From the IMG/VR virus record IMGVR_UViG_3300031867_000006, positions 32,001 through 96,000 of that record: a DNA stretch of 64,000 bases, one strand, 5' to 3'. How positions within the stretch are numbered: position 1 is the stretch's first letter; every line of letters starts with the position of its first letter. Below the pieces are notes generated by a model, which saw only the letters and a program-made list of their open reading frames with translations, was not told the origin of the DNA and did no database searches. The DNA comes from a virus (taxonomy: Duplodnaviria > Caudoviricetes). Of this stretch, positions 19,201 to 42,119 are shown piece by piece. Both the position numbers and the translations under genes were made by a program.

Positions 19201-22200
19201 TAAAATGGTATAATGCAGTATTGATTCCAGAAAGAGGATCATTCTCTCCAGCCTCATAATTAGATGTAAGTATTCCAATAGGATCGCCAGACATCATCTT
19301 ATCTTTTACATTACCTGCATTGGTAAGTAAACTATTAAATGAACCCTTAACCCCATCTACTACTTTGCCAGCAAATTTCTTAATCTCATTAGCTATACGC
19401 TTAACAAGCATTATAGGGAATGACATAATTCTAGCGCCAAATGCAGCTGTATGAGCCATACCAGAAAGAGGTCCTTCCGGAGCAGCATCAATCTTAAGGA
19501 AATCAGTAAGACTACTATTAGGATCTTTTATGAGGGCTTCACCCTTCTGTTCCTGCTCAGCAATATACTTGCCGTAATCAACTGCCTTATTAACAGCTTT
19601 CGTAACGCCTTCCTTCACTGCAGTTCCAGCGTTCTTAGCTAAATTAATAGCATTAGAGCCAAGCTCTTTAGCTTTGTCAACCGCAAAAGCACCAGCTTTC
19701 TTGATGTTGGAACCTAACGCCTTAGCGCCTGCTTTAATTGCTTTGCCAGCCTTCTTAACTCCAGATTTAATTGCTCCGCCAATTCTGCCAGTTACAGAAT
19801 GCTTTTTCTTAAGATACTCTTCCTTAGTATCTGTAGATCCAGTCTTCTCAAGATAAGCCTGATATTCAGCATCTGCTTCTTTTTGACGCTCTTCGAGATC
19901 ATCACCCATGAGCTTAAACAGATTAGAGCAAATCCACGGTACACCCGGGATCACTGCAGGAATAATCAAAAGGTTAGCTAATGCATTAACTAAACCACAG
20001 CCTAACTCTTCGAGCAAGTTAGTATCAGAAACACCAAGTATAGACTCAGCCTGATCACAACCTGTAACAAAGTCTGCTATAAGGAATGCTACAGTTACAA
20101 TAAGATTAAGCTTAGAAGCAGCATTTTTAAGCAAAGCCTCGCCAGCTTCTGCACTACCTCTACCAATTGCTTTTAAGAAAGTCTCAGAAACCTGTTTCTT
20201 TAACTTAGCAGCATATTTCATAGCGTTCTCGCCAACAGCTTTAGCAGCTTTTGCTAATCTATTCTGTACAATAGGACTATTAAAGAGATTGTCTAATCCC
20301 TTAACAAGAGCATCCTTCATTTTAGCAACTACAGATGCAACCTTATCAGATTTAGATAATCCACCACCAGCACCTTCCATCAATGCTCTAGTAGCATCAT
20401 CAGCACTATTAATGAATTCACCCTTCTTTACGAAGTCTCCAACGCTTTTCTTAACAGCATCTTTAGCACCTTTGATTCTATTAACAACAGTCGCTCCCTT
20501 GGAACCATTCTCAAAGAATGTTTCGCCAGCAGCTTTCCTTCCAATACCTTTACCGATATCACCAGCTGCTTCAAGAGGTGTTGTAATAGCTTTACCAATA
20601 ACACCACCGGCTTTACCAAGTACAGATTTAGACTTAAGAAGCTTACCACTAAATTTAGAAACTTGTGTTACGAGTGGACTTCCGCCAACTGCAGCAGCAT
20701 GAGCCATTCCATTTGCTGTAACTTTAGCATAGCTTGATCCCTTAAAGCTAGGGTCTTTAAATGCAAGATTTCCATCTTTATCAATATAACCTTCAGTACC
20801 ATCAACATTATAGATCTTACTATACTGACCATTGGCTATCTGTCCATATGTAAGCTGATTACCATTCTCGTCATACATTCCAGATAATGTATCAGCTCCA
20901 TATTTCTCAACAAGTTCTTGTAATCTATTAGTAGAATACTTATTCTTAAAACCTACATTGGTCTTATTACCAGTAACATTATCCATTACTGTTAAAGCAG
21001 CTCCAGCAGCACCGCCAGGTCCATTACTGGGACCACCATCTTTATCACCATCACCACTGCCAAAGATAGCATCATGAATAATATCTCCAAGAGACTTATC
21101 GCCAAATAATGCTTCTTTTATAGAAGAACCGATATTAACAAGAGCAGTGCCAATTGCTGGTATTGCAGTTCCTGTTATCCAAGGCACAACCTTTTCAGTA
21201 ATCCAGGGATGTAATACCTTTTCCCATATAGGTTTAATAAATCCATCATAGATCTTCTTAAGAATTCCAGACTTCCAAAGCAAGTAACCACCGAATAACA
21301 TAGCAAGCGGATTAAGCTTTGTGCCTTTACCTTCTTCATCCATATTATCAAACATGGAGTTGAATCTATCAGACATCTTCTGCTGAGCAGTATGCAACTT
21401 CTCTGCAGCCGCATCTTTAAGCTTCTTGGCTGTTACAATAGCTTTAGTCTTAGGATCAGTAGTATCAGGATCAATAGATCCATCATTACTTTTCTTAAAT
21501 ATCATAGCTTCGCCATCGGCATTAATAATAGGCATCTTTCCATCGCCTTTATCATCAAGATCTCCGCCTAATACAGAAGAACCACCACCGGCCGAACCAG
21601 CTTCTTCTTTCTGTCCAAACGGAAGCATATCTTTTAATGCTTTAGCTTTCTTAGCACCGCCAAGCAAGGACTTGCCGGCACCTAAGATACCTTTACCGAT
21701 AGCGCCAATACCTTTAGCAGCAGCACCTAAGAGGAATGTACCAATACCATTAGATTCAATTTCCTCAGTATCAGCATTCTGAGTTAATCCCGTTTTAAGA
21801 TTTTGTCTTTCCACAGGAGATATTTTATCAACTCCCTGAATAGAATCATATGTAGTCCATAATTTAGCTTTAACTATCTCTTTGCATTTAGCATTAAGAT
21901 CATTTAAGTTAAACATATTAAGGGTTAATAAATAAGCAAGCTCATCCTTATTTACAAGTTTACCTCTACCCTTTGCACTTCTTGCTGCAAAGTAATGACT
22001 AATATATTTATAATCAGAGAATATACTATAAATAGTCTTAATCTCCTTTTCAGTAAGTTCATTATGAATATAATTATGAGCATCGCTATCAAATCTCATT
22101 TTGAATTTAGCAAATTGATTAATCTCTGCTAAATTATCAGAAAGATTTGCTCTGGTTTCGCCATTTCTAATAGCTTTATTAATATCTCTCCCAAGCTTAC

Positions 22201-25200
22201 GCTCTCCATGAACAGCAGCAATAGCATTAGCTCCAAATCTAATAGCTGCAGTTCCTGCAGTTAGCGGGCTCATAGCTATTCTTCTAACATCGTCAATACC
22301 AGTACCAATTAAATTCCTAGCTTTACCAAGTTTACCTTTATATTTAAAATCGGCAGACACACCATGTATACCAATTTTTCCAGGTATATTAGTAATATCA
22401 TCAGTATGAAATCCAGTACTACGTGTCAAATGATCTTTAAATTCATCTGTAAGCTGTCTATCATCACTACCGAACCATTTATCAATTCGTTTCTGATAGA
22501 TAGCATCGTATTTCTCATTAACCTTCTCAAGAGATTCATCGAATTTGGCAGACATTTTATTTACAATATCTTGAAGCCCACCATCTTCTCCATCAGCAAT
22601 TTTAATACCCTTAGTAGCAATATCACTAACAAATCCTTTAATATCAGCTACATTCTCAGGAGTTTTTAATTGCATACTCTGATCAACTTGATTACCTGCT
22701 TCTCTATTAGTAATCTCAGTATTAAAGTTCTTTACAAGTTTAGATATGTCATATCTACTACCAAGATTAACCTTCAGACCCATATTCTTGAATGTATCTT
22801 CAAGTTCAGCTCTGGTTTCGGCTAACTCTCCTTCTGTAAGCTTTCCAGCTCTAGCTTTACGCTCTCTGATATCAACATAGCCTTTAAGTTTAGATTGAAG
22901 ACCGGTATCCCCTTCCATAAGACTTTCAAGTTCTTTTTCACTGATACCAGTTGAAGAACCAGAAGTTCTATATTTCTGAAGTACTGCAGGAATCTTATCT
23001 ATTTCACCAGCGTCTAAATGCTTTCTTATTTGCTTAAGAGCGGCTCCACTAAGTTTATTACCATTACCATCTCTATAGTTATTAAGAATTGAATCTATCT
23101 CTTTGCGTCGCCTATTAGATTCTCTTGTAAGACTAGCATTATTATCAGAAATGTCTTCAAGCTTCCTAACCATATCCTTGGCATCTTCTAATGATAGGTC
23201 TCCCTCTGCAGAACCGCCAATGTTAGCAAGCATTCTATCAAAGTCACTTACTTTATTACCACGCTTATTATTCATTTGCCATTCGATACGCTCAGCAGCA
23301 GTCATATAATCTGCTTCTCCACGTTCGATAGCTTTACCTCTAATACGATCACCTGCAACTCCAAAAAGCTTAAGTGGGCTAGTAGCAATATTAAATGCCT
23401 TCTTACCTAACCATAAACCAGCACGAGCCGGCGCAGTAGCAGCTTTAGTAACTCCGAGTATAGATCTAGATAAAGTACCAGCTAACCCTTCATCACTTTC
23501 AGCCCATTCAGTAATCTTTCTAGGTATAGAACCAAGCGCTTTAGGTAATGCATGTATAGCAGGTACTGTAAATTTGTTTAATGGAAGAATTATATTCTTC
23601 TCAATTGTATTCATCAGATCATCTTTAAATGATAAAGCTGATTTGGTTAATGGTTCAAAAGCATCTGATAAGAATCCAACCAGTCCACCTTCTCTAACAC
23701 CATTAACATCTATACCAAGGATCATGTCCTTGAACTCGTCGGTGGTAGTCATCATGCCTAAACCAGCACCGATAGCCATATTACCAACTAATCCGAAAGG
23801 ACCACCAAATACAAGTCCGGCAATTGCTCCGCCAGCAGCACCTTTAGCAGCCCCAGGAAGTAACTGCTTAAGAATATCTGTTTCTTTGCTAGATAACTTA
23901 AGAGATCCACCCTCACCAAAGTACTTCTGCATGAAAGTTTCATTATTCTTAAGTAATCCAATAGTACCACCAACAAGAAGTCCGCCTATAGGACCTAATG
24001 GTGTAAGCATACCAGGAATAATTCCAGCAAGACCATACTTAACCATATCCGGGAAGTACTTCTTGAATGTATCCTGAAGATCTTTAGATATAATTCCACC
24101 AGAACGCGACTTGCCATCTTCCCCAAGTTTACCAAACAGCTTATCCTTAAGGAACGTAGAATTCCTAATAATATTAACACCAGCGCCTAATGCAGCTCCA
24201 AATAAAGGACCACCAACAACCATTCCAAGAGCTCCACCAGTTGCACCACCAGCCAATGCTTCTGGAGCATACTGCTTAGCTTCTTTCAGGAAGTCTTTAA
24301 CTGTAACATCACCATTGGAAATATCAATACTTCCACCAGCATGTTTTGCTACAGATAATCCCATTCTCTTAGCCATTAATTCTTCTCGACCAAGATCCTG
24401 CTGTTTACCAACCAACCCCTTAGGATTATAAATATGAGTATAATCACCAAGCCCATAAGCTCCAGTCTTAGGTACAGTTCCTCTATAGTCTAATACGTTA
24501 GGTGAACCATCGCCATTTACACCGTAGAGTTGCTCTCCTTTGGAAAGCATAGTAATACCCTTAAATGGAGCTTTGAATGTACCTTTAGCATGTTGCTGTA
24601 CATTAACTCGTTCTATGCGAGTAATAAGCATATTCTTATGCTTATTTTCATCATATCCACCGCGAGAAGCAGCCATACGTAACTCATCGATCTTAGTATC
24701 TGAAACTCCAAGCTTACGGCATTCCTCCTCAAGCTCTTCAGGAGTCATAGCTAACATCTTACGATAATCTCTACTAGCATAAGCTTTATTAGGACTATAT
24801 AAAACACTTAATCTCTCATCACGCTTCTCTTTTGTAGCTAAAGCATCGTTCTTCTTAACCCAACCAAGTTCACCTGATTTTGTTAATCCTTGCTGCCAAC
24901 CCTTAGCAGTCATTCTTTCCATAGCCGCTCTATTATTGCTTCTGATAGTAGCAGCATTCATTGGCTCCTTAATATATTTATCATATACAGGACCATAGAC
25001 TTCTTTATTAGCATTGACAAACATCTTGCCAAGACCAATAAATTGATCTTTAAGAGATTCAGTAAATCTATCCTTGAAATCGTCACCTAAACCAAGCTTT
25101 TCTTTAAGAGGGTCAAAGATTGTATCTTTGAGATAATCGCCGGCTTTAGTAAACAGATCATTGGTTTTGCCAATAAGCATTTCCATAAAGCCGCTATACT

Positions 25201-27733
25201 TATTCTTATCGCCATCTTGGTCAGTGCCTTCAATTTCAGTTCTGTAGAATATTTCATATATATTTTTATCAGCAGCATAAATAAGATCTGTCATAGCAGT
25301 GGTCATACCACCAGCTACAGCAGCTGTAATAGAACCATATTTATTAAGAGCTCCAGATATCTTAGTAAAGATATTTTTCTCTTCCGGAGTTTCTAATTCA
25401 TTGGTTTCTTTCTCAGCCTTCTTAGCCTCACGTTCAATATCATCTCTTGTAATAAACTTACCACCGTAAAGCTTTTCGTTAAGAGCTTTGCTTAATGCAT
25501 TGCTATTAACTTTATTCTTCATATCACGGTTATAAGTATCTGTATTTACATCGATAAGAAGATCTGCTAAGTGCTGAAGTGCTTCTGTATCTTCATCACT
25601 AAATCTGGAGAAATCAACAGCCTTACCTTCGAGGATATTCTTTATAGCTTTACGTTTGATCTCTTCATCTTTATTCTGTCTATCAGCAACACTAGTCTGA
25701 GGTTTATTAGGATTAGTAAGACTAATATTCTTAAAGTCTACTTTAACAGCATTATCTGCAACTGTACCACCAGTACCAGCAACAACTCCGCCGTTAACTC
25801 TAGCCCAGATAAGTTCCTTATTAATATTCTGAAGATAATTAAATAAGGAATTGCCATACTCATCCTTAATCTGAAGTAATGGAGAAGAACCTTCCCATTT
25901 CTCAGATTTAGAATCGCCTATTTTAGTCCACTTTCCAGCAGCTCTATCAGATTTAGATGTAGATTCATCCTGGAAGATAGTTGTTATAGTATCCGTAACT
26001 CCAGAATTAATACTGTCTATAATCCTCTGCTCCTGAGCTTTTGAATCAAGAACCTGACGAGAATTCATAAGCTTAGAATAGTCAGTAACTACATTACCAC
26101 GTCTATCTCTACGCTTAGCAGAATTCTTATAGATATCAGCAATCTCTTTATAATGCCTATAGAATGCCGGATATTCAGCATAGCTAACATCATTCTTTGT
26201 AGGCGTTGCATTAGGATTAAATATACCATTGTTATTATAGAGATACATCTGGAACTCAAGCATAGCCTGATTGATCTCATCAATTTCAGCCTGAGACTGT
26301 GCTCCTGCCTTACGTATATTTAATCCAGTTGTCATGTTAGCTTTAACATCAGCTGTAGCAGACTGAATAGCATTATTCTTAATATCATCATATCTTCTTC
26401 TTATAGCTCTAGCATCAGTAAATTTACCAGAGTTATAATCAAAGATTCGTTCAGGATTACTACTTAATACAGACTCAATCCTTCTCAAATATGCGGGGAT
26501 AACTTCAATGATAGCTTTACGAGTAATACCATCAAATGGGATTGGTCCCTTCTCATATTTAGAAGTATCTATAGATCTACTTACATTGGTATTTATACCA
26601 AATATCTTGGCTACCATCTCAAGAGGACCGCCTTTGCCGATCTGATTTCCAAGTGAACCTATAGCAGTAGCAAATGCGTTAGATATCGTTCCATTAAGTT
26701 CTTTAGTGGCTTCTTTAAGTGTAGCAGGAATAGCTGCTTTAACCATGAAATCGGTAATGAATCTTAATGGCGATGTCATCATAGCCATAAGCATATTGGA
26801 ATCTCCGCCCATTCCAGGCATAAGTGATTCCATTTCTTTATTGATATTAGTCTTTATATTCTTAAAGTAATTATCAATGTCAGGCATACCAGAACTGGAG
26901 ATTTCACTCCATTTCATAATACCTCTAGATTTCTGGTTTTTCTGAGCAGATTGCTTTTCTTTCTCCGCAGCAGACGTATACTGCTGCTTCTGAAGTTCTA
27001 GCATTTCCTTAAGTATAGAGTTGCGTTCTGTATCTAATTTAATAGATTCAGTAAAGTAACTGCTCATATTCTTATCCATATTTCCCAAGCTTGTCGCTAA
27101 AAGATTATGGATTGTTCCCATGGTAGAATTTACTACGGAGATATCATTATGAATGCCTCCGATGAGACGTTCATTCTGATTGTAAATCATACCAACGGAA
27201 GTTCTCATATTCTTAATCTGAGCATCTGATGCAGTCATTACAGCATTAACTGTAGCACCAGCGACAGCCTTATTAGATCCTTCTATAGCACTTGCTATAA
27301 TCTTATCTCCGGCTGTGACCTCTGATTTAGAACCTTGAGTGGATGTATCTTTAGATTTGCCATTAATAATGTCTTCCCAGTTGTCATCAATCCCGAACTC
27401 AGAAAGATCATTCATATCGTCGGCATCAATTCCAAGGAATTTACCAGCTTCTGCTTCGCGCTCTTTATTATAGAATTTACCAGTCTTCAAATCCTGGATA
27501 GCATTCTTCAAGCCATAATCAGCAGCTTGATAAATCTTAGAGTTCTTTACATAACCAATTGATCTGGTTATTGTAGTCGTAGGATGTCTAACTGCTTTAT
27601 ATACATTGACAAACGCATCCTTATTAGACGCAGCAAAATCTATCATTTCAGGAGCATCTTGCTTTGCAGTATCTACTGCACTATAAGCAATGGATTTCAT
27701 TACATTTTTCATGTAGTTATTACGAAGCGCCAC
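16262..27733 (-). CDS. Giant tape-measure-like virion protein with C-terminal peptidase C39-like, 3D/DPBB-like and NlpC/P60 domains
   Basis: About 3820 aa (probable GTG start 27733 after GGAGG). Long Gly/Ala/Lys helical body with glycine-zipper segments. Motifs QTIGDSACGP...PHYVTVTG...VQDP; GRYTIACTTTFGQVGD...IIADIK; NDCTGL...KGDIISRNGHAEIF. Confidence 0.75.
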   Translation of the reverse strand: MALRNNYMKNVMKSIAYSAVDTAKQDAPEMIDFAASNKDAFVNVYKAVRHPTTTITRSIGYVKNSKIYQAADYGLKNAIQDLKTGKFYNKEREAEAGKFLGIDADDMNDLSEFGIDDNWEDIINGKSKDTSTQGSKSEVTAGDKIIASAIEGSNKAVAGATVNAVMTASDAQIKNMRTSVGMIYNQNERLIGGIHNDISVVNSTMGTIHNLLATSLGNMDKNMSSYFTESIKLDTERNSILKEMLELQKQQYTSAAEKEKQSAQKNQKSRGIMKWSEISSSGMPDIDNYFKNIKTNINKEMESLMPGMGGDSNMLMAMMTSPLRFITDFMVKAAIPATLKEATKELNGTISNAFATAIGSLGNQIGKGGPLEMVAKIFGINTNVSRSIDTSKYEKGPIPFDGITRKAIIEVIPAYLRRIESVLSSNPERIFDYNSGKFTDARAIRRRYDDIKNNAIQSATADVKANMTTGLNIRKAGAQSQAEIDEINQAMLEFQMYLYNNNGIFNPNATPTKNDVSYAEYPAFYRHYKEIADIYKNSAKRRDRRGNVVTDYSKLMNSRQVLDSKAQEQRIIDSINSGVTDTITTIFQDESTSKSDRAAGKWTKIGDSKSEKWEGSSPLLQIKDEYGNSLFNYLQNINKELIWARVNGGVVAGTGGTVADNAVKVDFKNISLTNPNKPQTSVADRQNKDEEIKRKAIKNILEGKAVDFSRFSDEDTEALQHLADLLIDVNTDTYNRDMKNKVNSNALSKALNEKLYGGKFITRDDIEREAKKAEKETNELETPEEKNIFTKISGALNKYGSITAAVAGGMTTAMTDLIYAADKNIYEIFYRTEIEGTDQDGDKNKYSGFMEMLIGKTNDLFTKAGDYLKDTIFDPLKEKLGLGDDFKDRFTESLKDQFIGLGKMFVNANKEVYGPVYDKYIKEPMNAATIRSNNRAAMERMTAKGWQQGLTKSGELGWVKKNDALATKEKRDERLSVLYSPNKAYASRDYRKMLAMTPEELEEECRKLGVSDTKIDELRMAASRGGYDENKHKNMLITRIERVNVQQHAKGTFKAPFKGITMLSKGEQLYGVNGDGSPNVLDYRGTVPKTGAYGLGDYTHIYNPKGLVGKQQDLGREELMAKRMGLSVAKHAGGSIDISNGDVTVKDFLKEAKQYAPEALAGGATGGALGMVVGGPLFGAALGAGVNIIRNSTFLKDKLFGKLGEDGKSRSGGIISKDLQDTFKKYFPDMVKYGLAGIIPGMLTPLGPIGGLLVGGTIGLLKNNETFMQKYFGEGGSLKLSSKETDILKQLLPGAAKGAAGGAIAGLVFGGPFGLVGNMAIGAGLGMMTTTDEFKDMILGIDVNGVREGGLVGFLSDAFEPLTKSALSFKDDLMNTIEKNIILPLNKFTVPAIHALPKALGSIPRKITEWAESDEGLAGTLSRSILGVTKAATAPARAGLWLGKKAFNIATSPLKLFGVAGDRIRGKAIERGEADYMTAAERIEWQMNNKRGNKVSDFDRMLANIGGSAEGDLSLEDAKDMVRKLEDISDNNASLTRESNRRRKEIDSILNNYRDGNGNKLSGAALKQIRKHLDAGEIDKIPAVLQKYRTSGSSTGISEKELESLMEGDTGLQSKLKGYVDIRERKARAGKLTEGELAETRAELEDTFKNMGLKVNLGSRYDISKLVKNFNTEITNREAGNQVDQSMQLKTPENVADIKGFVSDIATKGIKIADGEDGGLQDIVNKMSAKFDESLEKVNEKYDAIYQKRIDKWFGSDDRQLTDEFKDHLTRSTGFHTDDITNIPGKIGIHGVSADFKYKGKLGKARNLIGTGIDDVRRIAMSPLTAGTAAIRFGANAIAAVHGERKLGRDINKAIRNGETRANLSDNLAEINQFAKFKMRFDSDAHNYIHNELTEKEIKTIYSIFSDYKYISHYFAARSAKGRGKLVNKDELAYLLTLNMFNLNDLNAKCKEIVKAKLWTTYDSIQGVDKISPVERQNLKTGLTQNADTEEIESNGIGTFLLGAAAKGIGAIGKGILGAGKSLLGGAKKAKALKDMLPFGQKEEAGSAGGGSSVLGGDLDDKGDGKMPIINADGEAMIFKKSNDGSIDPDTTDPKTKAIVTAKKLKDAAAEKLHTAQQKMSDRFNSMFDNMDEEGKGTKLNPLAMLFGGYLLWKSGILKKIYDGFIKPIWEKVLHPWITEKVVPWITGTAIPAIGTALVNIGSSIKEALFGDKSLGDIIHDAIFGSGDGDKDGGPSNGPGGAAGAALTVMDNVTGNKTNVGFKNKYSTNRLQELVEKYGADTLSGMYDENGNQLTYGQIANGQYSKIYNVDGTEGYIDKDGNLAFKDPSFKGSSYAKVTANGMAHAAAVGGSPLVTQVSKFSGKLLKSKSVLGKAGGVIGKAITTPLEAAGDIGKGIGRKAAGETFFENGSKGATVVNRIKGAKDAVKKSVGDFVKKGEFINSADDATRALMEGAGGGLSKSDKVASVVAKMKDALVKGLDNLFNSPIVQNRLAKAAKAVGENAMKYAAKLKKQVSETFLKAIGRGSAEAGEALLKNAASKLNLIVTVAFLIADFVTGCDQAESILGVSDTNLLEELGCGLVNALANLLIIPAVIPGVPWICSNLFKLMGDDLEERQKEADAEYQAYLEKTGSTDTKEEYLKKKHSVTGRIGGAIKSGVKKAGKAIKAGAKALGSNIKKAGAFAVDKAKELGSNAINLAKNAGTAVKEGVTKAVNKAVDYGKYIAEQEQKGEALIKDPNSSLTDFLKIDAAPEGPLSGMAHTAAFGARIMSFPIMLVKRIANEIKKFAGKVVDGVKGSFNSLLTNAGNVKDKMMSGDPIGILTSNYEAGENDPLSGINTALYHFTKIYSVPIAAISWAGHKVSDAVKSIVSKAKAGFESLGSNIPAVKEKAAAGDIKGLWSAEFTPTEGDPMAGLNKGLFTIYKLTQVPGAGLHWIGGKISSAFTSAMDKSRTNANAVNNAQESINKAADNVKSMNDIKSIWDVKADLTDGDPIKGVWSMSLGLSKIGGSIKGIFNMIIEPMLNFIDDVKDKIGDFVDGAKDLADGVSDWVGDKADKASKAYDSAKTSAGNWLNDKWQAAKKFVTGTGTYGRGYSKQIDSSIANLPYNSSADRSRQTIGDSACGPAAAVNVLESFGRGKNPIVAASNYAVSRGYKETDGGTKPGFFTDYFSKNGLGSEISYNRNTLEKNINSGMPTVLMGSDGRGTSSSTPFGKSPHYVTVTGTVGNKSIVQDPESPYDNQLYDTRSLLNKTSLGVSAYGRGSGIIPIYGIGKYGTGPTTINIPAGLGGVHSYMGWQCITSPSSAQYKLRAAKGQNFNSEGFGIIDGRYTIACTTTFGQVGDAVDFYKANGKVLKCIIADIKNPTDKGCNTWGHLDGKCIVEFVVDKRTWYSSSKGGAAASMHANPGTASCHPEWGNTTITKAVCYGSANAPAGDAGSAASTGADTGVVNGAAASIDTTTQQPDDPLSAFTNALTKTMSESKIGKAMGLMSSSSSTTTTTTGDSGGDAGSPYQSGGAASGDMSSWISTIETVKKAIAANNPTYQAPMMSTITINGEKLKYRNDCTGLTSAAAMAAGAMETGIWPPASGAWTSGSGISLKGFTKMGWPGWEGLQKGDIISRNGHAEIFSHNEGGRHMVWNGGSTNALRTPGVSGSSHPSYTTIWRRNSEPLTSPFGKGDNGIKPLSKYGQLQDSYKYGRGGQTLNYIPAKKTASSKESSLYYEDPKGTDKPRYGKGSDIDLTQIINFLMTIADNTDKLNTIVKILNKKLNVEITAEDVANAQSGQSTKRQITGKGTSTYDKYTDQLNDQSLASVVNAMKAIAAE

Positions 27734-27767
27734 TAGGTTCACCTCCCTTCATTTGGGTTATTTTAAT

Positions 27768-27903: not shown

Positions 27904-28434
27904 TTACTTAAGCCAGGAAGGGCAAGAACCTGCAACGCTGAGTGTCTCATAGCTGGGAACCTTTGTAGACTGCTTAGAATATGCAGGCGTTCCATCAGGA
28001 TTAACACCAGTCTTAATGGGGAATGTTGATACAGACTCAGGCTTGATCTTAAGCTTAAGAGATACGTCGCTCTTTTCACGCTTTCCAAGAGGAAGCTTCC
28101 TGCCAGTATGAAGATAGGTATTGATAAACTCCTTAGAAATTCCAACCATAGCTGTAGCATCAGCCTTGGTGAATTCGTAACCAGCTGCAAGAGTCTGAGC
28201 CTCTGCCTTGGGAATAGAACCAGCTCCAGCAAGGATATCAGTAGCAATTACAACTGCATCTTCACGAGGGCAGTACTGTCCTTCAACGCCAGACTTGCCG
28301 TAGATATCAACCTTATAATCCGGATCATTAAGCATTGCTCTCATTACGCTGATCTCATCTGCCTTGGATGCCGATGACTGTGTCTTCTCAGTATCAATTT
28401 TCTTTACAAGGTCTGTTACTTTAATTTGTTCCAT
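27904..28434 (-). CDS. Hypothetical protein, possibly HU-like DNA-binding
   Basis: Start MEQIK at 28434 with GGAGG; C-terminal TGVNPDGTP...KVP arm loosely resembles the HU GRNPxTGE...IP arm. Confidence 0.4.
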   Translation of the reverse strand: MEQIKVTDLVKKIDTEKTQSSASKADEISVMRAMLNDPDYKVDIYGKSGVEGQYCPREDAVVIATDILAGAGSIPKAEAQTLAAGYEFTKADATAMVGISKEFINTYLHTGRKLPLGKREKSDVSLKLKIKPESVSTFPIKTGVNPDGTPAYSKQSTKVPSYETLSVAGSCPSWLK

Positions 28435-28541
28435 TTGTTTATCCTCCTTATGAAACATAATATTGGTTTTCTGCTACTAAGACTACGCAAAGCCCTAATA
28501 ATCATTACAAATATGTATGTATATTTGTAAACTTTTACGCG

Positions 28542-28694
28542 TTAGGCAGTCTTAGCTTCCTTCTCTTTATCTACTATTCTACACATAACCACTTTCTTAG
28601 GCGGTTTACCCTTAGCTTTGATATAATCGTTCAATTCCGTATCTGTCATTGATGTCAATATATCTAAAAAGTCTTTTCTAGACATCTTTTTCAT
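28542..28694 (-). CDS. Small basic hypothetical protein (50 aa)
   Basis: MKKMSRKDFLDILTSMTDTELNDYIKAKGKPPK..., AAGGAGG RBS; below the ORF-track cutoff. Confidence 0.65.
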   Translation of the reverse strand: MKKMSRKDFLDILTSMTDTELNDYIKAKGKPPKKVVMCRIVDKEKEAKTA

Positions 28695-28738
28695 CGTACT
28701 CTACCTCCTTTAAGTACATGTAACCATAGAGATAAAGT

Positions 28739-29134
28739 TTAATATTTATCGCCGTTCATATCCATTATATTCTTGAGTACATTGGCAGTATCATATTCAA
28801 GATCCATTGTTTTATATAGAATCTTAATCTCATTGGTATCATGAGGATATTTTTCCTTTAGAGCATTATTAAATAGCATCTTAATAGATTTAGCTACTTC
28901 CATATCTGATATGTCATCCATACTAGATCCAGGAAACATATCATTGGTTAAATCTGTAAGACCAAGTATTCTCTTTGGAACTTCAACACGAATTTTATAG
29001 TTCTTATTCCTGACCATATTTAATAATACAGTTTCAGTATTTATGTAATCATTTAGATCTATAAATTTACACCCAAAGATTCTACCAATATATAATGGAT
29101 CACGCATCTTTTCCTGGTTCAGCATCGATGACAA
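28739..29134 (-). CDS. Hypothetical protein
   Basis: 131 aa, operonic; start uncertain. Confidence 0.65.
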   Translation of the reverse strand: MSSMLNQEKMRDPLYIGRIFGCKFIDLNDYINTETVLLNMVRNKNYKIRVEVPKRILGLTDLTNDMFPGSSMDDISDMEVAKSIKMLFNNALKEKYPHDTNEIKILYKTMDLEYDTANVLKNIMDMNGDKY

Positions 29135-36149: not shown

Positions 36150-38006
36150 TTAGAATAATGACATAATTAAAGCTTCGTCTATATTTTCTCTACTCGGTAC
36201 ATACGCTGTACGCTTGTTAAGAATCTTAGACTCCACATAATATCCATCTATACAATACTTGGTTTCAAGCTGGAAATCCTTATACTGATTAAATAAGAAT
36301 CGTTCCTTGCCCTCAGGTGCTGGAAGAATCATATTAACTTCTTTGATACCTTTTATATCAGAATCATATTTAGCCTTGACTGTTGCAAGCTCACTAAGTA
36401 TTCCAAGTTTTAACCCAGTGAAATCGACTTTCTTGAAGTTCTCATCGAAATCTATCTGATCTTCTGTAAGCATAGGCTTTCCAGTAAGTGCTGTATAGAA
36501 GAATGTATTATCTACAGTCTTATTAGTCCTATAAGCTTCATAGACTTTCATAAATCTATGAATATCTCCAACAAACTCATACTCTGCTTCTAGATAATAA
36601 TCAGCAACTTCTTTATGAGAGAGTATTGTGAGATGACCCTCTTCATCAATTGCAATGTACTTATCTGATACTACATCTGGTGAGAATAAATACTGGGTTG
36701 GATCTATAGTCTTATTATACTTATTAGTATGAACCTTCATGATGAATGGTTTCTTTATACCAGCTATAGGATTCATTGCTGCTAGAGACATAGCCTCATG
36801 TTTATATAATTCCATATACTGCTCATCATCATACCTTACGGGATACTGTATTTTCCATTCATATGATAAGTCATCTGCTACAGAGATGATGCCCACACAA
36901 ATTGGCGTAAGGTGATCCGGAAGATCCTCTCTAGAACCATTGCAAATGAATACATAAGCGTCTTCTTTCTCACCATCCTGATCTGGCGTATAAGCTTCTA
37001 TAGCATCCTGAATAGATTCAGCCCATATATCCTCAGTAACATCTCCGGGATTACGCTGGTCTGATATATACCAATGCTGAATTTTATCTATATCAATAAG
37101 TTTCAATCCGCATGGTGTAGATATAATAATATTATTCATTCCTTCCATTACATCGGCATCTTCTTTGAGATATTTAGCAACCTGAGAGGTGTCTTTAATA
37201 GAAATATTATATCGCTTTGCCGCAGATCTAATCCTTCTAGCTAATAATGGTTTCTTATCTTCACTAGCATGACCAAACAACTTTATGGCAGAATTTATAT
37301 GCTTTTCAGAATCTAATGGGAACTTGCGATCTTCAGGAATACCGAACGCAGAATCTGGTAAATTAGATCTCTTTGTCGCAGCCTCATTAAACTTATGATC
37401 TGTCCAAACCTGATAATTCGCTTTAGTAAGCTTATCCTTATGGGATAAGAGATATTCCAAAGTAAATGGTTTATTACCATATACATTAATATTGTCTTGC
37501 CCATTGGTTGTGAAGTACATAGATAAATCATGGATATGACCATGAATATTCAGATCCACTCCAGGAATCTGCTCCACATTCTCAGGTCTATGCGAGAAAT
37601 ATACTCTAACTCCATCAAAGTCATGAATAAGATATTCATATATAAAATCGAATCCACAGTTTTCATAGAAATCAGAACCCTGCATACCATCATGATTGCC
37701 TATAATAAGCAGCTTCTTTCCAGGTATTGACTTCATGATCTCTTGAGCCTGAGCAGAATCTTCTTCATTAGCATATCTAAAGCAGATGTCGCCTAAGAAA
37801 AGAAAGACGTCATTGTCTTTAATATTCTTCTTACACCAAGAAACCATATTCTGTATATTTATCTTATTCTTACCCTTGCCGTATTTATGAGCATTTATAT
37901 GCCAATCGGAAGATAAGAAAATTCTATCTTTAGGCGTATTATCTAAAAGATAATGAATATCATTACTATCTATCTCTTCAGGAGTATTCAAATTAATACT
38001 ATCCAT
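36150..38006 (-). CDS. Calcineurin-like metallophosphoesterase fused to a DUF6582-like domain
   Basis: SDWH, LGD, GNHD, SHRP and HGHIH motifs, then RSNLPDSAFGIPEDRKFPL...AIKLF; late promoter 38033-38044. Confidence 0.8.
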   Translation of the reverse strand: MDSINLNTPEEIDSNDIHYLLDNTPKDRIFLSSDWHINAHKYGKGKNKINIQNMVSWCKKNIKDNDVFLFLGDICFRYANEEDSAQAQEIMKSIPGKKLLIIGNHDGMQGSDFYENCGFDFIYEYLIHDFDGVRVYFSHRPENVEQIPGVDLNIHGHIHDLSMYFTTNGQDNINVYGNKPFTLEYLLSHKDKLTKANYQVWTDHKFNEAATKRSNLPDSAFGIPEDRKFPLDSEKHINSAIKLFGHASEDKKPLLARRIRSAAKRYNISIKDTSQVAKYLKEDADVMEGMNNIIISTPCGLKLIDIDKIQHWYISDQRNPGDVTEDIWAESIQDAIEAYTPDQDGEKEDAYVFICNGSREDLPDHLTPICVGIISVADDLSYEWKIQYPVRYDDEQYMELYKHEAMSLAAMNPIAGIKKPFIMKVHTNKYNKTIDPTQYLFSPDVVSDKYIAIDEEGHLTILSHKEVADYYLEAEYEFVGDIHRFMKVYEAYRTNKTVDNTFFYTALTGKPMLTEDQIDFDENFKKVDFTGLKLGILSELATVKAKYDSDIKGIKEVNMILPAPEGKERFLFNQYKDFQLETKYCIDGYYVESKILNKRTAYVPSRENIDEALIMSLF

Positions 38007-38062: not shown

Positions 38063-38100
38063 AAAAAATAATAGACCCTCATAAAAGAGCCTATTATTTT
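38063..38100 (-). terminator. Intrinsic terminator closing the RAMP gene + pentamer array unit
   Basis: Minus strand AAAATAATAGGCTC-ttttat-GAGGGTCTATTATTTTTT. Confidence 0.75.
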
Positions 38101-38644
38101 AGTACAGCGCCTCGCTATACTCCACCGAACTCATAGTTACTGAACAGCACCACACCCTGCTTTACCGTAACAGAGCATTACAGTAATTCGCATTACTTCA
38201 CCCCACCACCACGGCACTTTACTCTACAATACCGTACCTATACTATAACCTACTCCACAGCACTCCTCCTTTACAATACGCTACGGGACATTACTCTGCC
38301 CGGCCATACCTTCGCACTACTCTAATTGACTACACATTACTTTACCTAAACCCCACGAAACATCACAGCGGAAGACCACACGATACCATTACTTTACGTC
38401 ACATTGTGAAACTAAACTAGACTTAGTCAAAACGTCGCAACAGCATACCGCATAATACTGAACAATACCGAAACACAACTCCACAGCAATGTACGCCACT
38501 ACACTATACCATTGCTACACACTACTTTGCCTTACTTTGCCTTAACTACACCAGGCCGAACCGTACGAAACTATACCTATACTTCACGTAACTCTACGAT
38601 ACTGCACCATAACAGAACTTCACTCTATTATACAACACCATTAC
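38101..38644 (-). ncRNA. Pentamer-periodic non-coding array (GY-NNN)n; candidate guide-RNA array
   Basis: By hand count, 94 of 106 plus-strand pentamers end in AC/GC; 14 single-C phase slips give 31/36/41-nt units; no ORF of 60 aa or more. Confidence 0.75.
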
Positions 38645-38651
38645 AAAGTAA

Positions 38652-39290
38652 TCAGTCTTCGATGATCTCATAAGTGAATCTACCATATGAGCCATTGCGC
38701 CACTGGCCGAGTCCATTATACTTACCGAAATCAAGCCATTCGTATACTGCCTTCTCAAGCTTGTCATTCAATAGTCTGATAACAAACTCTGCTGTTGCTC
38801 CTTCGTGGATCATTTCGCTATTAGCGAGAGATATACGAGGACCCTGCGCTGTCTCGGCACGCAATGATCTCTGAAGATTATCCATCTCTCCATCATATGA
38901 GATAGGTATCTTGCGAAGCGCAGCATCAGCATTAAGATTACCATCTTTGTCAGGCCCATAGACGAATACCATACCATCTATATATTTCTTATGGGCTTTG
39001 ATGCTGGCTGACGCGTTCTTCTCACCAAGCAGCTTAAGAATGCCGCAGGCATGCTTGAAGAACCCGCGGATCTGGTAATCCCAAAGCAAGGGGTTTCCAT
39101 CTTCATCACGAAGGAATACTGTTTTGCCCTTACGCTCAACTTCCTCAGTACCTAACGCTTCGATCTCTTCTTGCTTATTAGGAGCATCGGGCGCATTACT
39201 AGCAATATACTGACTATAGATGTCAGGATCGCTAGGTGCTGAGCCAAGAACTGGTGTTGTAAAGGTTATTCTAATCTTGATATCTTTCAT
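38652..39290 (-). CDS. Stand-alone RAMP/Cas7-like RNA-binding protein
   Basis: N-terminal beta strand IRITFTTPVLG, middle PLLWDYQIRGFFKHA helix, and C-terminal Gly-rich loop GLGQWRNGSYGRF, all characteristic of RAMP/Cas7-group proteins. Confidence 0.75.
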   Translation of the reverse strand: MKDIKIRITFTTPVLGSAPSDPDIYSQYIASNAPDAPNKQEEIEALGTEEVERKGKTVFLRDEDGNPLLWDYQIRGFFKHACGILKLLGEKNASASIKAHKKYIDGMVFVYGPDKDGNLNADAALRKIPISYDGEMDNLQRSLRAETAQGPRISLANSEMIHEGATAEFVIRLLNDKLEKAVYEWLDFGKYNGLGQWRNGSYGRFTYEIIED

Positions 39291-39334
39291 AATTTTATCC
39301 TCCTTATATTTAAGATATCTATATACTACAATAT

Positions 39335-39347
39335 TATAATATATAAC
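39335..39347 (-). promoter_or_regulatory. Early-type promoter motif GTTATATATTATA
   Basis: Upstream of the RAMP gene RBS. Confidence 0.55.
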
Positions 39348-39369
39348 TCAAATATCTTAAATTCACAAG

Positions 39370-39542: not shown

Positions 39543-39570
39543 TTGCAGGTACCACTATTGGTACCCGCAA
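39543..39570. terminator. Terminator hairpin after the Ig-domain gene
   Basis: TTGCAGGTACCA-ctat-TGGTACCCGCAA. Confidence 0.7.
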
Positions 39571-39575
39571 TATGA

Positions 39576-42119
39576 TTATTTTTTGATTGTGCCTTTAGAT
39601 TTAGCTTTCTCTTTTACACACTTATAGATGGTGGATTCATCTATTTTATCATTCTTGGCAATATAATAAGCCAGAAGCTTAAGAGCAATGTCTCTAGTAT
39701 CAAACGTAACAACCCATTGCTTTTTATTCTTAACTTTCTTGACTTTACCATACCATGTAACTTTACCCTTGTTTTTACCAGAGGTTCGTTTAAGCTTATA
39801 CTCTTTCTTAGCAGCCTCAACCCATGTTTTGATTTTACCACCATTGTTCTTGATAGTAACCTTAATGGATTTACCAACTTTAAGAGCTGCATTATATCCA
39901 GCACCATTATCAACAGTAGGAGATGAAGTATTCTTCTTATACTTCTTCCACTGCGTCTTCTGCGGATGAGCTTCTGTAGGATAAGTAGTGCTATCGCATC
40001 CACTTGTAGCAACCATGTAATCTTCTTTACAGTATCTACAAAGCATTACATATGGTATAGATCTAGATTCATCAAGCTTCTCTATCTTACCAACAGTATT
40101 ACATGATGGACAACCATATTTATAGTAATCTTTAGAAGATATTATTTTTGCAGGTCCGGCTGCTTTGATTTCTTTCTTGGCGCCATCGCCAGCTACAAAA
40201 CCACCATAGATAAATACTTTTCTAATTACCCATACATTTACAGTATAACCATAATTTAAGAAGTGGGTAAGTCCCTTAATGAATTTCTTAGCATCGTCAA
40301 TCTTCTTAAACATTTTAGCATCTGTAACGATATTAGATAACTCGATAACATCAGAATTCTCACCAACAAAGAGTATCTTACCATTATCCTTATGATTGGT
40401 AGTAATTACATAACGTGTATACAGCTTATAGCAGGACTCTAAATCTTTAAGATTAATCTGCTTATTATTTTTATCGTCCTTAATGGTGAGATCTGCAAAA
40501 TCATCATAATCTTCTAACTCTTCTGTTGTCTGACCTTCATCAGCATCTTCTTCAAGAACTAATGTCTGACCATCATCGGCAACAACATATCCAGCCGGAA
40601 TAACCCATATTGTACAGAAGGCATTATAAGATACGCCAGCGTAATAGTAAGTTGCTTGTAATCTAGCGCGACCCTCTGCTTTACCATAAACCATACCATC
40701 AGAATCTACTGTAAATATATTAGTATCTTGAGAAGTATAATACATTGTACCATATGCGACTGCTGTACCATAAGGCTGAATCTCTATGTTAGGATATTCA
40801 CTATCTCCAACATTGATAACAAATACTGATTCGTCAAATGCGATACCAGTGACAGTATCATCATTTAAGTATTTATTACTATCGTCAACTTCGGAATTAT
40901 CATCTAAATCGTCTTCAGAAGATCCAGTCTCATAACTTGCTTGTACTCCAGTCACATAGCATTCATCAAACTTAGTAGCATCAGATACAGATATACACTT
41001 TATAATCGCATTTCCTGGAGATAAACATGTCACATAACCATTTTCATCAACGGAGAAGCATTCTCCATTAGTATCATCACAATCACAATCCCATGTAACA
41101 CCCTCTTTAGAAGCTATGTATGGACTAATACTATAATTTAACCCTACTGTTGAACCTACAGTGATGAGTAGATTATGACTCTTTAATGTAACAGAAGATA
41201 CAGCAATCTCATCGCCATCTGTAACGTCCTCAGGAATAACTATAGATTCTGAAACAACCTGAGCGGTGGCTGAGAATGTAGCGTCAATTTCTTCTGGATT
41301 ATCCTTCTTATATCTAGTATGAACTACAGTAATTGTAGCCTCACCAATGCCTTGCAGAGTAAGAACACCATGGTTATCTACTAATGCAACTCCAGTATTC
41401 GATGAAGTATACGTTAAGTTAGGTTCTTCATTAGCCGTAGATGGGAAATACTTAAGTTTAGTATATATAGTAGAACCTTGCTTACCTTGATAGATGCTAT
41501 CATTAAATTGCATGCCTGTAATATTAATGATTGTCTCGCCAGTATCAGGCGTAGTAGGCTCCTGATCATTTATAACAATCGTAGAGAAGCACTGCACTGA
41601 CTCATTATATACCGATGCAGATAATACAGCTCTACCAGCGCTTATAGGATAAATATTACCATAAGCATCAACCTTAAAGATTGTAGTATTCGACGACTTG
41701 TATTTAACCTTAGGATAATTAACCAATCCATCAGGCTTAAAACCTAATACAGTCGGAAATGAGCTAGTATTTATAGGAATAGTATATGAATCAGACTCAA
41801 AAAATAACTGCTCAACGAGCTGTCTCTCATCATCCGCTCCAGTAACTAATATGGTAGTAGTACCCTCTATAAGATCATCACCAGAATAAGCTGTTATTTT
41901 AATAACAGCAGTACCATAGTTCTTACACTTAATAGAGACTATACCATTATCTATACTATCTACTGAAGCAATAAGATCATCTGATGATGAAAACTGAAAA
42001 TTAGCATTGCTGTCAGTCAAATCAGATGGTAGCAATATCAAATTAGCTTGTATGGTAGAACCCTGAGCAGATGAGTAAGAAGTCTTCTCAAACTGAATAG
42101 AAGTATATTTTCTAGCCAT
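39576..42119 (-). CDS. Bacterial Ig-like (Big_2) repeat virion protein with Zn ribbon and Lys-rich tail
   Basis: About five repeats of the type YxSSNTxVAxVDxxGxxxxxxxGxAxIT; CPSC...CRYC; late promoter 42149-42160. Confidence 0.8.
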   Translation of the reverse strand: MARKYTSIQFEKTSYSSAQGSTIQANLILLPSDLTDSNANFQFSSSDDLIASVDSIDNGIVSIKCKNYGTAVIKITAYSGDDLIEGTTTILVTGADDERQLVEQLFFESDSYTIPINTSSFPTVLGFKPDGLVNYPKVKYKSSNTTIFKVDAYGNIYPISAGRAVLSASVYNESVQCFSTIVINDQEPTTPDTGETIINITGMQFNDSIYQGKQGSTIYTKLKYFPSTANEEPNLTYTSSNTGVALVDNHGVLTLQGIGEATITVVHTRYKKDNPEEIDATFSATAQVVSESIVIPEDVTDGDEIAVSSVTLKSHNLLITVGSTVGLNYSISPYIASKEGVTWDCDCDDTNGECFSVDENGYVTCLSPGNAIIKCISVSDATKFDECYVTGVQASYETGSSEDDLDDNSEVDDSNKYLNDDTVTGIAFDESVFVINVGDSEYPNIEIQPYGTAVAYGTMYYTSQDTNIFTVDSDGMVYGKAEGRARLQATYYYAGVSYNAFCTIWVIPAGYVVADDGQTLVLEEDADEGQTTEELEDYDDFADLTIKDDKNNKQINLKDLESCYKLYTRYVITTNHKDNGKILFVGENSDVIELSNIVTDAKMFKKIDDAKKFIKGLTHFLNYGYTVNVWVIRKVFIYGGFVAGDGAKKEIKAAGPAKIISSKDYYKYGCPSCNTVGKIEKLDESRSIPYVMLCRYCKEDYMVATSGCDSTTYPTEAHPQKTQWKKYKKNTSSPTVDNGAGYNAALKVGKSIKVTIKNNGGKIKTWVEAAKKEYKLKRTSGKNKGKVTWYGKVKKVKNKKQWVVTFDTRDIALKLLAYYIAKNDKIDESTIYKCVKEKAKSKGTIKK

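What the first reader, a model, noticed from the sequence alone, without database searches (positions are those of the whole stretch)
38063..39347. Minimal candidate RNA-guided system: lone RAMP/Cas7-like gene plus a pentamer-coded RNA array
Seen: early-type promoter, RBS, and a 212-aa protein with RAMP hallmarks (Gly-rich GLGQWRNGSYGRF loop). Eight bases after the stop, a 540-nt non-coding tract begins with strict 5-nt periodicity (sense strand GY-NNN, e.g. GGT GC AGT AT CGT AG AGT TA CGT GA AGT AT), closed by a terminator. There are no other cas genes and no CRISPR repeats. Known: Cas7-family proteins polymerise on RNA with a fixed nucleotide step. Inference: one protomer binds each pentamer, the GY acts as scaffold, and the variable bases spell a gapped target code. 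From memory and unverified, this resembles recently reported phage VIPR systems (GGY/NN RNAs); here the first base is relaxed to NGY.
Basis: partly seen in the sequence, partly recalled or inferred. Interest (0 to 1): 0.9.

Follow-up and report, generated by a model that had tools for sequence, protein, structure and literature searches.

The report
Phage VIPR system, staggered NGY-NN array
A large uncultured gut or rumen phage carries a small CRISPR-like RNA-binding protein followed by about 14 short five-letter-repeat guide RNAs; this is a real copy of the VIPR RNA-guided silencing systems first described in 2026, so it is a new member of a known kind and not a new kind of system.

Summary
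A 212-aa gene (38652-39290, minus strand) is followed 6-12 nt after its stop by a ~545-nt non-coding tract of N-G-Y-N-N pentamers, closed by a hairpin terminator. The tiling score is 299.5, against 42 +/- 14 in shuffles.

The protein folds as a minimal RAMP. All top 49 structural matches are CRISPR RAMPs, the best being Csm3 at Z 13.4. A profile comparison aligns it over its full length with the experimentally studied Vipr of phage SUSP1 (E 5e-5).

More than 560 viral contigs and 137 gut or rumen MAG contigs encode relatives. In 146 of 162 sequences examined (161 fetched loci plus the window's own record), a same-strand pentamer array abuts the gene.

The periodicity is not strict. The array is cut into ~14 units of 5k+1 nt, each starting with GGY, which gives a +1 register shift at every boundary. 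This matches the "staggered array" and "YNNNG" variants that the VIPR preprint mentions but did not test.

The SUSP1 residues that read the first G (H17, D177) are replaced here. Those that read G2 and Y3 (W178, R179) are kept, which fits NGY.

No vap gene, cas gene or CRISPR repeat lies nearby. Targets were not found. This scan has already reported VIPR in over 300 other genomes.

The parts
39333..39360 (-). Promoter-like element TTAAGA-16-TATAAT upstream of the gene, flanked by a 9-nt inverted repeat TTAAGATAT / ATATCTTAA (39311-39360)
   Evidence: Consensus scan; sequence. Consensus match only. The number of such sites in the region equals the shuffle expectation.
39298..39305 (-). Shine-Dalgarno AAGGAGGA, 7 nt before the ATG
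   Evidence: Read from the sequence.
38652..39290 (-). vipr gene: 212-aa minimal RAMP, with an RRM core, a thumb beta-hairpin at about residues 137-161, and the G-loop G193-L-G-Q-W-R-N-G-S-Y-G-R-F205
   Evidence: ORF. AF2 model pLDDT 87.7. Foldseek against PDB: type VII Cas7 at E 2e-8 and Csm3. VIA Z 13.4 to Csm3, with the top 49 entries all CRISPR RAMPs. hhalign against the SUSP1 Vipr clade: E 5e-5 over 181 columns.
38102..38645 (-). vrRNA array of about 105 N-G-Y-N-N pentamers (Y is mostly T here) in about 14 units. Each unit typically begins GGTAT/GGTAA, ends NGTWAW, and is 5k+1 nt long, so the register shifts by +1 at each boundary ('staggered').
   Evidence: The same architecture is seen in relatives.
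38065..38100 (-). Intrinsic-terminator-like hairpin followed by a T-run, closing the gene-plus-array transcription unit

Best explanation
This is a VIPR (Viral Interference Programmable Repeat) system of the vap-less kind with a staggered array, carried by an uncultured large gut or rumen phage.

Shown here:
- A minimal RAMP-fold protein homologous to Vipr.
- Directly downstream on the same strand, between a promoter-like site and a terminator, a ~545-nt array of NGY-NN pentamers organised in about 14 units of 5k+1 nt.
- The gene-array pairing and the unit architecture are conserved in well over a hundred related viral and proviral loci.
- G and Y are constrained while the three N positions drift freely.
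- Array content turns over faster than the gene.

Inferred from the SUSP1 work:
- Gene and array are co-transcribed.
- The RNA is cut at the unit boundaries into guides of about 31-46 nt.
- One Vipr protomer binds each pentamer, sequestering the G-Y scaffold through the conserved G-loop Trp and Arg.
- The two bases after Y are presented to pair with double-stranded DNA, skipping every third target base.
- The filament silences transcription of a competing mobile element or a host gene.

The relaxed first scaffold base fits the replacement of the two G1-reading residues of SUSP1 Vipr (H17 absent or Ser, D177 to Gln) in this clade.
For: Fold. The AF2 model has pLDDT 87.7. Foldseek against the PDB gives 208 hits at E<=1e-3, led by type VII Cas7 and Csm3. 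VIA-align gives Z 13.4 and rmsd 3.4 over 152 residues to Csm3, and ranks 1-49 are all CRISPR RAMPs. In BFVD the top hit is a gut siphovirus 'RAMP superfamily protein' with TM 0.84-0.92.

Sequence.
- The family profile against the PDB gives type VII Cas7 at E 2e-5.
- Profile-profile against the SUSP1 Vipr clade gives E 5e-5, probability 67%, 181 aligned columns end to end. The N-terminal MKxxxIxIT..P.L and the G-loop G.G.WR...GRF..E are shared.
- I located the SUSP1 vipr gene myself from its flanking GGY-NN arrays.

Array. The tiling is about 19 sd above shuffles and unique in the window. All 14 register shifts are +1.

Conservation.
- 79 of 80 IMG/VR loci have a period-5 tract abutting the gene. 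In the later set, 146 of 162 sequences have a strong array.
- 85 of 90 tracts lie on the gene strand, and +1 shifts outnumber -1 shifts 1276 to 290.
- The first pentamer of a unit is GGY.
- In mid-unit pentamers, positions 0, 3 and 4 carry 0.0-0.1 bit, against 1.2 bit for G.
- Substitution frequency among near-identical units is 0.033 at G and 0.066 at Y, against 0.09-0.12 at the N positions.
- Loci with 95-98% identical genes share only 13% identical units.

Mechanistic residues come from the cryo-EM preprint. Context: a viral record with phage neighbours and no CRISPR repeats.
Against: - No experimental datum exists for this locus or for any staggered array. The preprint states that only the ribozyme and single-vrRNA architectures were confirmed by sRNA-seq.
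- Homology to SUSP1 Vipr is remote (22-24% identity, hhalign probability 67%).
- The thumb residue R138 and the bundle residue K33 could not be mapped.
- Guides are short, at 5-9 pentamers, which gives 10-18 specified bases. That is little for specific DNA recognition.
- No vap gene is present.
- No target was found that stands above chance under any skip rule.
Confidence: 0.82

Rival explanations
1. It is a VIPR-family system with a different decoding rule. Because the first scaffold base is free in this clade, three bases per pentamer (N4, N5 and the next N1) might be presented and read contiguous DNA triplets. Alternatively, the short units might act cooperatively or unprocessed as one long filament with a hinge at each +1 shift.
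For: Position 0 carries no information and mutates as freely as positions 3 and 4. The G1-reading residues are lost. NN-only guides of 5-9 pentamers specify only 10-18 bases. One unit (unit 9) read as contiguous triplets matches the phage's own record at 18 of 20 positions (genome position 114924), while 0 of 300 shuffles reach 18.
Against: Contiguous-triplet matching showed no enrichment in the 2.3 Mb of related loci: 6 observed against 12 +/- 7 expected for 5 pentamers. The single 18/20 hit is A-rich and is one of about 70 tests. In SUSP1 the pocket for the skipped target base is built by the thumb and the helical bundle, not by G1 recognition, so the loss of G1 reading need not change the DNA step.
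Confidence: 0.1
2. The RAMP is a counter-defence or RNA-processing protein, for example a Cas7 or Cas6 mimic that sequesters host crRNAs or cleaves RNA. On this reading the periodic tract is its decoy or substrate and not a guide library.
For: The fold alone does not separate Cas7-like from Cas6-like or Cas5-like RAMPs; Cas6 and Csm4 chains also appear in the lists. Phages are known to carry cas-derived anti-CRISPR components (general knowledge).
Against: The full-length alignment is to Vipr, whose guide function has been shown. The N positions are hypervariable and units turn over between near-identical phages. That is the signature of a specificity library, not of a fixed decoy.
Confidence: 0.04
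3. The tract is a DNA-level or chance compositional feature, such as phased bending or a replication or packaging signal, or a decayed relic. The neighbouring gene would then work without it.
For: Tandem Repeats Finder and Rfam find nothing. The RNA folding z-score is unremarkable at -1.6.
Against: The motif is strand-specific: G-Y on the gene strand in 85 of 90 tracts. The tract always abuts the gene, upstream or downstream, in phages that are otherwise unrelated. It lies between a promoter-like site and a terminator. G is under constraint. The gene keeps all family-invariant residues.
Confidence: 0.03

Closest known systems
VIPR systems with staggered arrays and YNNNG repeats (bioRxiv 10.64898/2026.04.26.720920, Methods 'VIPR type classification' and legend of fig. 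S18)
   Same: A stand-alone Vipr RAMP in a virus. The pentamer repeat has only G and Y fixed, which is YNNNG in the paper's register. Consecutive short vrRNAs abut with a one-base offset and have no tail, ribozyme or spacer between them.
   Different: I could not see the figures or tables, so I cannot say which of the seven types this is or whether this clade is among the 667 representatives. The paper did not confirm the staggered architecture by RNA sequencing. Here Y is mostly T, whereas the Clostridia prophage relatives use C.
Type II VIPR of Escherichia phage SUSP1 (NC_028808.2; vipr at 28474-29061, vap1 at 28031-28471)
   Same: A protein of about 200 aa with the same fold class. It aligns end to end, with a shared N-terminal strand motif and the G-loop G-x-G-x-W-R...G-R-F. 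An array lies on the gene strand next to the gene. The context is viral.
   Different: SUSP1 uses a strict GGY scaffold, with 9-16 repeats per ~100-nt vrRNA. Each vrRNA has its own conserved 3' tail and pseudoknot, and there is a vap1 partner gene. The window locus has NGY, 5-9 repeats per unit, no tails and no vap. The G1-reading residues are replaced (H17 to Ser or a gap, D177 to Gln).
CRISPR Cas7-family backbone subunits: Csm3 (type III-A), Cas7 of type VII, Csf2 (type IV)
   Same: The best structural matches. All share an RRM core, a thumb hairpin and a glycine-rich loop. They polymerise on RNA with a fixed nucleotide step and flip out bases periodically.
   Different: The step is 6 nt with one flipped base in Cas7, and 5 nt with three displaced bases in VIPR. 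Here there is no CRISPR repeat-spacer array, no Cas5, Cas6, Cas10 or other partner, and no adaptation genes. The guide information is interleaved with the scaffold.

Membership tests
VIPR (Vipr + vrRNA) | Stand-alone minimal RAMP of about 20 kDa with a single RRM, a G-loop and a thumb | tested here: met
   212 aa. AF2 pLDDT 87.7. Csm3 and Cas7 are the top matches at Z 13.4 and Foldseek E 2e-8. The G-loop is GLGQWRNGSYGRF.
VIPR (Vipr + vrRNA) | Sequence homology to an experimentally characterised Vipr (SUSP1) | tested here: met
   hhalign of the family profile A3 against the SUSP1-clade profile A2 gives E 5e-5, probability 67%, 181 columns over the full length. The homology is remote (22% identity), so support is moderate.
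VIPR (Vipr + vrRNA) | Adjacent same-strand array of pentanucleotide repeats with a fixed G/Y scaffold and hypervariable N positions | tested here: met
   for the window; for relatives. The scaffold is NGY, not GGY, which is a published alternative.
VIPR (Vipr + vrRNA) | Scaffold-reading residues of the G-loop (SUSP1 W178 stacks on G2, R179 holds Y3; H17 and D177 read G1) | tested here: met
   W197 and R198 are conserved in the clade. D177 is replaced by Q196, and H17 has no equivalent, being Ser or a gap. This pattern fits an N-G-Y scaffold. R138 and K33 could not be mapped.
VIPR (Vipr + vrRNA) | Non-CRISPR, mostly viral context | tested here: met
   The record is an IMG/VR virus of 165,769 bp. 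Neighbours are phage genes. There are no direct repeats of 20 nt or more within +/-9 kb.
VIPR (Vipr + vrRNA) | Accessory vap gene beside vipr (typical, not universal) | tested here: not met
   The gene is flanked by an Ig-domain structural gene and a phosphoesterase gene. No neighbour family is shared across the 81 loci. The preprint lists six vap genes for seven types, so a vap-less type is implied.
VIPR (Vipr + vrRNA) | Array transcribed, processed to discrete vrRNAs and bound by Vipr | not testable with these tools
   This needs sRNA-seq and pull-down experiments.
VIPR (Vipr + vrRNA) | Natural DNA targets matching the NN code with a one-base skip | tested here: inconclusive
   No self-target was found. 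There was no enrichment in 2.3 Mb of related loci. Exact IMG/VR hits for two units were few (8 and 30) and other guides did not converge on them.
CRISPR-Cas class 1 (types III, IV, VII) Cas7 | Cas7-type RAMP fold | tested here: met
CRISPR-Cas class 1 (types III, IV, VII) Cas7 | CRISPR repeat-spacer array and partner cas genes (Cas5, Cas6, Cas10, Cas8, Cas14) | tested here: not met
   No direct repeats. Neighbours are not cas genes. There were no PADLOC or NCBIfam hits above cut-off.

The most novel reading that the evidence does not exclude
In this very large gut and rumen clade, the loss of first-G recognition frees a third base per pentamer. Together with the unusually short tail-less staggered units, this could mean a decoding rule or mode of use that differs from the published NN/one-skip code. 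Candidates are triplet reading, or cooperative or unprocessed multi-unit filaments. No staggered array has yet been examined experimentally.
Probability: 0.12. Interest if true: 0.7.

Novelty: new member of a known kind. Interest (0 to 1): 0.33.

Why it matters
The locus adds a clean natural example of the least-studied VIPR architecture: staggered, tail-less, NGY scaffold, no accessory gene. It also shows that this clade is very large, with 2,122 clusters at 50% identity at E<=1e-3, spread through prophages of gut and rumen Clostridia and at least one large phage.

The link between the lost G1-reading residues and the relaxed first scaffold base is a testable structure-function prediction. 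The short guides raise a practical question about how few repeats suffice for specific DNA recognition, which bears on the use of Vipr as a minimal programmable DNA binder.

It does not change the picture of what VIPR is.

Tried and rejected
- Pfam, PHROGs, PADLOC and NCBIfam gave no family for the protein.
- Rfam found no hammerhead or other family in the locus.
- Tandem Repeats Finder does not see the tract.
- RNA folding of the array is unremarkable, z -1.6.
The array could therefore not be compared with those of sister phages.
- The metagenome scan gave only one locus, 56% identical.
- No RNA holder was listed for the locus.
- megablast of the locus against GenBank phages found no match.

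Target search:
- The phage's own 166-kb record has no match above shuffled guides under the NN, NNx, NNxx or NNN rules. The one exception is unit 9 under NNN, at 18/20, which I judged weak after multiple testing.
- 1,742 family units against 2.3 Mb of related loci gave 47 NNx matches against 32 +/- 10 expected, which is not significant. The NNxxx excess is residual array homology.
- Exact IMG/VR scans of unit 5 (8 hits) and unit 10 (30 hits) were run. Five of the unit-5 hits fall in frame on one conserved motif, IVGTAGWLW, of a ~100-aa membrane protein of unrelated phages. The other 13 guides do not converge on those contigs. I treat these hits as chance.
- No shuffled-pattern control scan was run in IMG/VR.

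Not attempted:
- Complex prediction, because it offers no RNA chain and a filament job has little value.
- A second structure prediction, because no pairwise structural aligner was available.

Full report
**What is in the sequence**

On the minus strand, an ORF of 212 aa runs from 39290 to 38652. It is preceded by AAGGAGGA 7 nt upstream of the ATG, and by a sigma-70-like TTAAGA-16-TATAAT at 39360->39333.

Six nucleotides after the TGA stop, a tract of about 545 nt begins (38645->38102). No long ORF crosses it. It ends in a hairpin followed by a T-run at 38100->38065.

Read on the gene strand, the tract is a chain of pentamers N-G-Y-N-N, with Y mostly T. Identity at lag 5 is 0.44 and at lag 10 is 0.42, against about 0.20-0.30 at other short lags. 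A dynamic-programming tiling with this motif scores 299.5, against 42.2 +/- 13.7 in 200 shuffles. No other 550-nt stretch of the 64-kb window on either strand approaches it.

The periodicity is not strict. The tiling needs 14 register shifts, and all 14 are +1. They divide the tract into about 14 units of 26, 31, 36, 41 or 46 nt (all 5k+1), plus a last one of 65 nt. Eleven units begin with GGY, typically GGTAT or GGTAA, and most end in NGTWAW.

There are no tails, spacers or ribozymes between units, and Rfam finds nothing.

**The protein**

No Pfam, PHROG, PADLOC or NCBIfam family is assigned. An AlphaFold2 model built on 51 homologues is confident, with pLDDT 87.7 and pTM 0.82.

- Foldseek against the PDB gives 208 matches at E<=1e-3. 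They are led by the Cas7 of type VII (8z4j_J, E 2.3e-8) and Csm3 of type III-A.
- The Foldseek-independent VIA-align search puts CRISPR RAMPs in the top 49 places. The best is Csm3 9g9a_D, with Z 13.4 and rmsd 3.4 over 152 residues.
- A profile of the family also reaches type VII Cas7 by sequence (E 2e-5).

The model has the RRM core, a long beta-hairpin at about 137-161 (the thumb), a small helical insert at about 24-54, and the glycine-rich loop G193-F205.

**Comparison with VIPR**

Three 2026 preprints describe VIPR. Their main points are:
- Vipr, a stand-alone RAMP, forms a helical filament with one protomer per pentamer of a GGY/NN vrRNA.
- The GGY bases are sequestered.
- The NN bases pair with double-stranded DNA while every third target base is skipped.
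- The outcome is transcriptional silencing of competing phages and satellites.

The first preprint names alternative repeats NNNGG, YNNNG and NNNNG. It also names 'staggered arrays', in which consecutive vrRNAs come from positions overlapping by 1 nt. N-G-Y-N-N is YNNNG in the paper's register, and units of 5k+1 nt that each start at a GG are what such a stagger looks like. The paper says that only the ribozyme-interspersed and single-vrRNA architectures were confirmed by sRNA-seq.

**Direct test of homology**

I fetched SUSP1 (NC_028808.2, named) and located its vipr gene (28474-29061, minus strand, 195 aa) and vap1 from the GGY-NN arrays in both flanks. I then collected its clade.

Profile-profile comparison of my family (A3, 57 sequences) with the SUSP1 clade (A2, 37 sequences) gives one end-to-end alignment of 181 columns, with E 5e-5 and probability 67%. 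The N-terminal strand (MKxxxIxIT..P.L) and the G-loop line up.

Using the cryo-EM description:
- W178, which stacks on G2, corresponds to W197.
- R179, which holds Y3, corresponds to R198. Both are conserved in this clade.
- The two G1 readers are not kept. D177 is Gln196 here, nearly invariant in the close-homologue alignment, and H17 aligns to Ser17 or to a gap.

This fits a scaffold in which only G2 and Y3 are fixed. It is an inference from an alignment, not a structure. R138 and K33 could not be placed.

**The pairing is conserved**

- The family is large: 312 proteins in the word-indexed search, and 2,122 clusters at 50% identity with E<=1e-3 in the exhaustive profile search.
- More than 560 IMG/VR contigs encode relatives.
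- 137 hits came from contigs of species-representative genomes. Most of the 80 loci listed are MAGs of gut and rumen Clostridia: Oscillospiraceae, Lachnospiraceae, Ruminococcus and Faecalibacterium.
- In 79 of the first 80 loci, a period-5 tract directly abuts the gene, downstream in most and upstream in some.
- In the full set, 146 of 162 sequences (161 fetched loci plus the window's own record) carry a strong array.
- 85 of 90 tracts are on the gene strand, and +1 shifts outnumber -1 shifts 1276 to 290. Units have mostly 5-7 pentamers.
- The first pentamer of a unit is GGC-A-N. The unit end is N-G-Y-A-A plus one base, often '...AGCAA nGGAAn'.
- In mid-unit pentamers, G carries 1.2 bit and Y 0.5 bit, while positions 0, 3 and 4 carry 0.0-0.1 bit.
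- Among 391 pairs of near-identical units, substitutions hit G at 0.033 per site and Y at 0.066 per site. Positions 0, 3 and 4 are hit at 0.093, 0.088 and 0.124. The pairs are not phylogenetically independent.
- Loci whose genes are 95-98% identical share only 13% identical units. Some pairs with identical genes share only 36-57%.

Together this is the pattern of a fixed scaffold carrying a fast-changing specificity library.

**Context**

The window lies in an IMG/VR virus record of 165,769 bp with 35.9% G+C. CheckV estimates it as 59% complete, and it holds one vipr copy.

The neighbours on the same strand are an Ig-domain structural gene (39576-42119) and a 618-aa phosphoesterase (36150-38006). 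No neighbour family is shared across the 81 loci, so there is no vap here. The relatives sit mostly in 30-60-kb temperate-looking phages, next to HTH repressor and antirepressor genes. No CRISPR-like repeat lies within +/-9 kb.

**Targets**

I could not find any target. See the Tried and rejected section for the numbers.

With 10-18 specified bases per unit, exact-match scans of a collection the size of IMG/VR cannot by themselves separate signal from chance.

**Verdict**

The finding is real and correctly interpreted. It belongs to a family published in 2026 that this scan has already met in more than 300 genomes. It is a new member of a known kind.

What remains open, for this locus and for the whole clade:
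- how staggered arrays are processed;
- whether such short guides work alone;
- whether the freed first base changes the code.

Noticed in passing
window 38403-38430 (minus strand), inside the array: A promoter-like TTGACT-16-CACAAT coincides with the one unit boundary that lacks a G-Y hexamer ('tgacta'). It could be an internal promoter splitting the array, or it could be chance.
   Followed up: no
window 39311-39360: A 9-nt inverted repeat TTAAGATAT / ATATCTTAA brackets the promoter-like site upstream of vipr, which makes it a possible operator. TTAAGATAT occurs 14 times in the 166-kb record.
   Followed up: partly
window 39545-39572 (minus strand): A G+C-rich hairpin (GCGGGTACC...GGTACCTGC) followed by AATTTT lies right after the Ig-domain gene. 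The vipr-array unit therefore looks like an autonomous insert bounded by two terminators.
   Followed up: no
L083 and L084 (JAGCAN010000001.1, 22454-29074 and 70347-76967): Two copies of the locus, identical over the compared 540 nt of the gene and in all 22 units called, lie 47.9 kb apart on one 86-kb MAG contig. This is probably a ~48-kb phage assembled as a concatemer, not two prophages.
   Followed up: no
related loci, e.g. L014:2280-3020 and L026:3530-4220: In the Clostridia prophage relatives every unit ends in a conserved '...AGCAA nGGAAn' before the next GGCAx. This short shared boundary word could be the processing site or a minimal handle. It is much weaker in the window's array (NGTWAW).
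   Followed up: partly
L163, L164, L167, L168, L169 (IMG/VR contigs): Read as codons, unit 5 of the array spells I-V-G-T-A-G-W-L. This is an exact in-frame match to a conserved motif of a ~100-aa membrane protein (…WYVKW…IVGTAGWLWVG…WHDRAL…) in five phage contigs. I judged it chance because no other guide hits these contigs.
   Followed up: yes
window 16262-27742 (minus strand): A single open frame of 3,826 aa, not examined.
   Followed up: no
phage records KP282676 / NC_028651 (Hydrogenobaculum phage 1) and BK013345 (Aquificae Conch Spring virus): These encode distant relatives of the protein (25-26% identity, tblastn E 5e-5 to 1e-4), annotated as hypothetical. They were not checked for pentamer arrays.
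   Followed up: no
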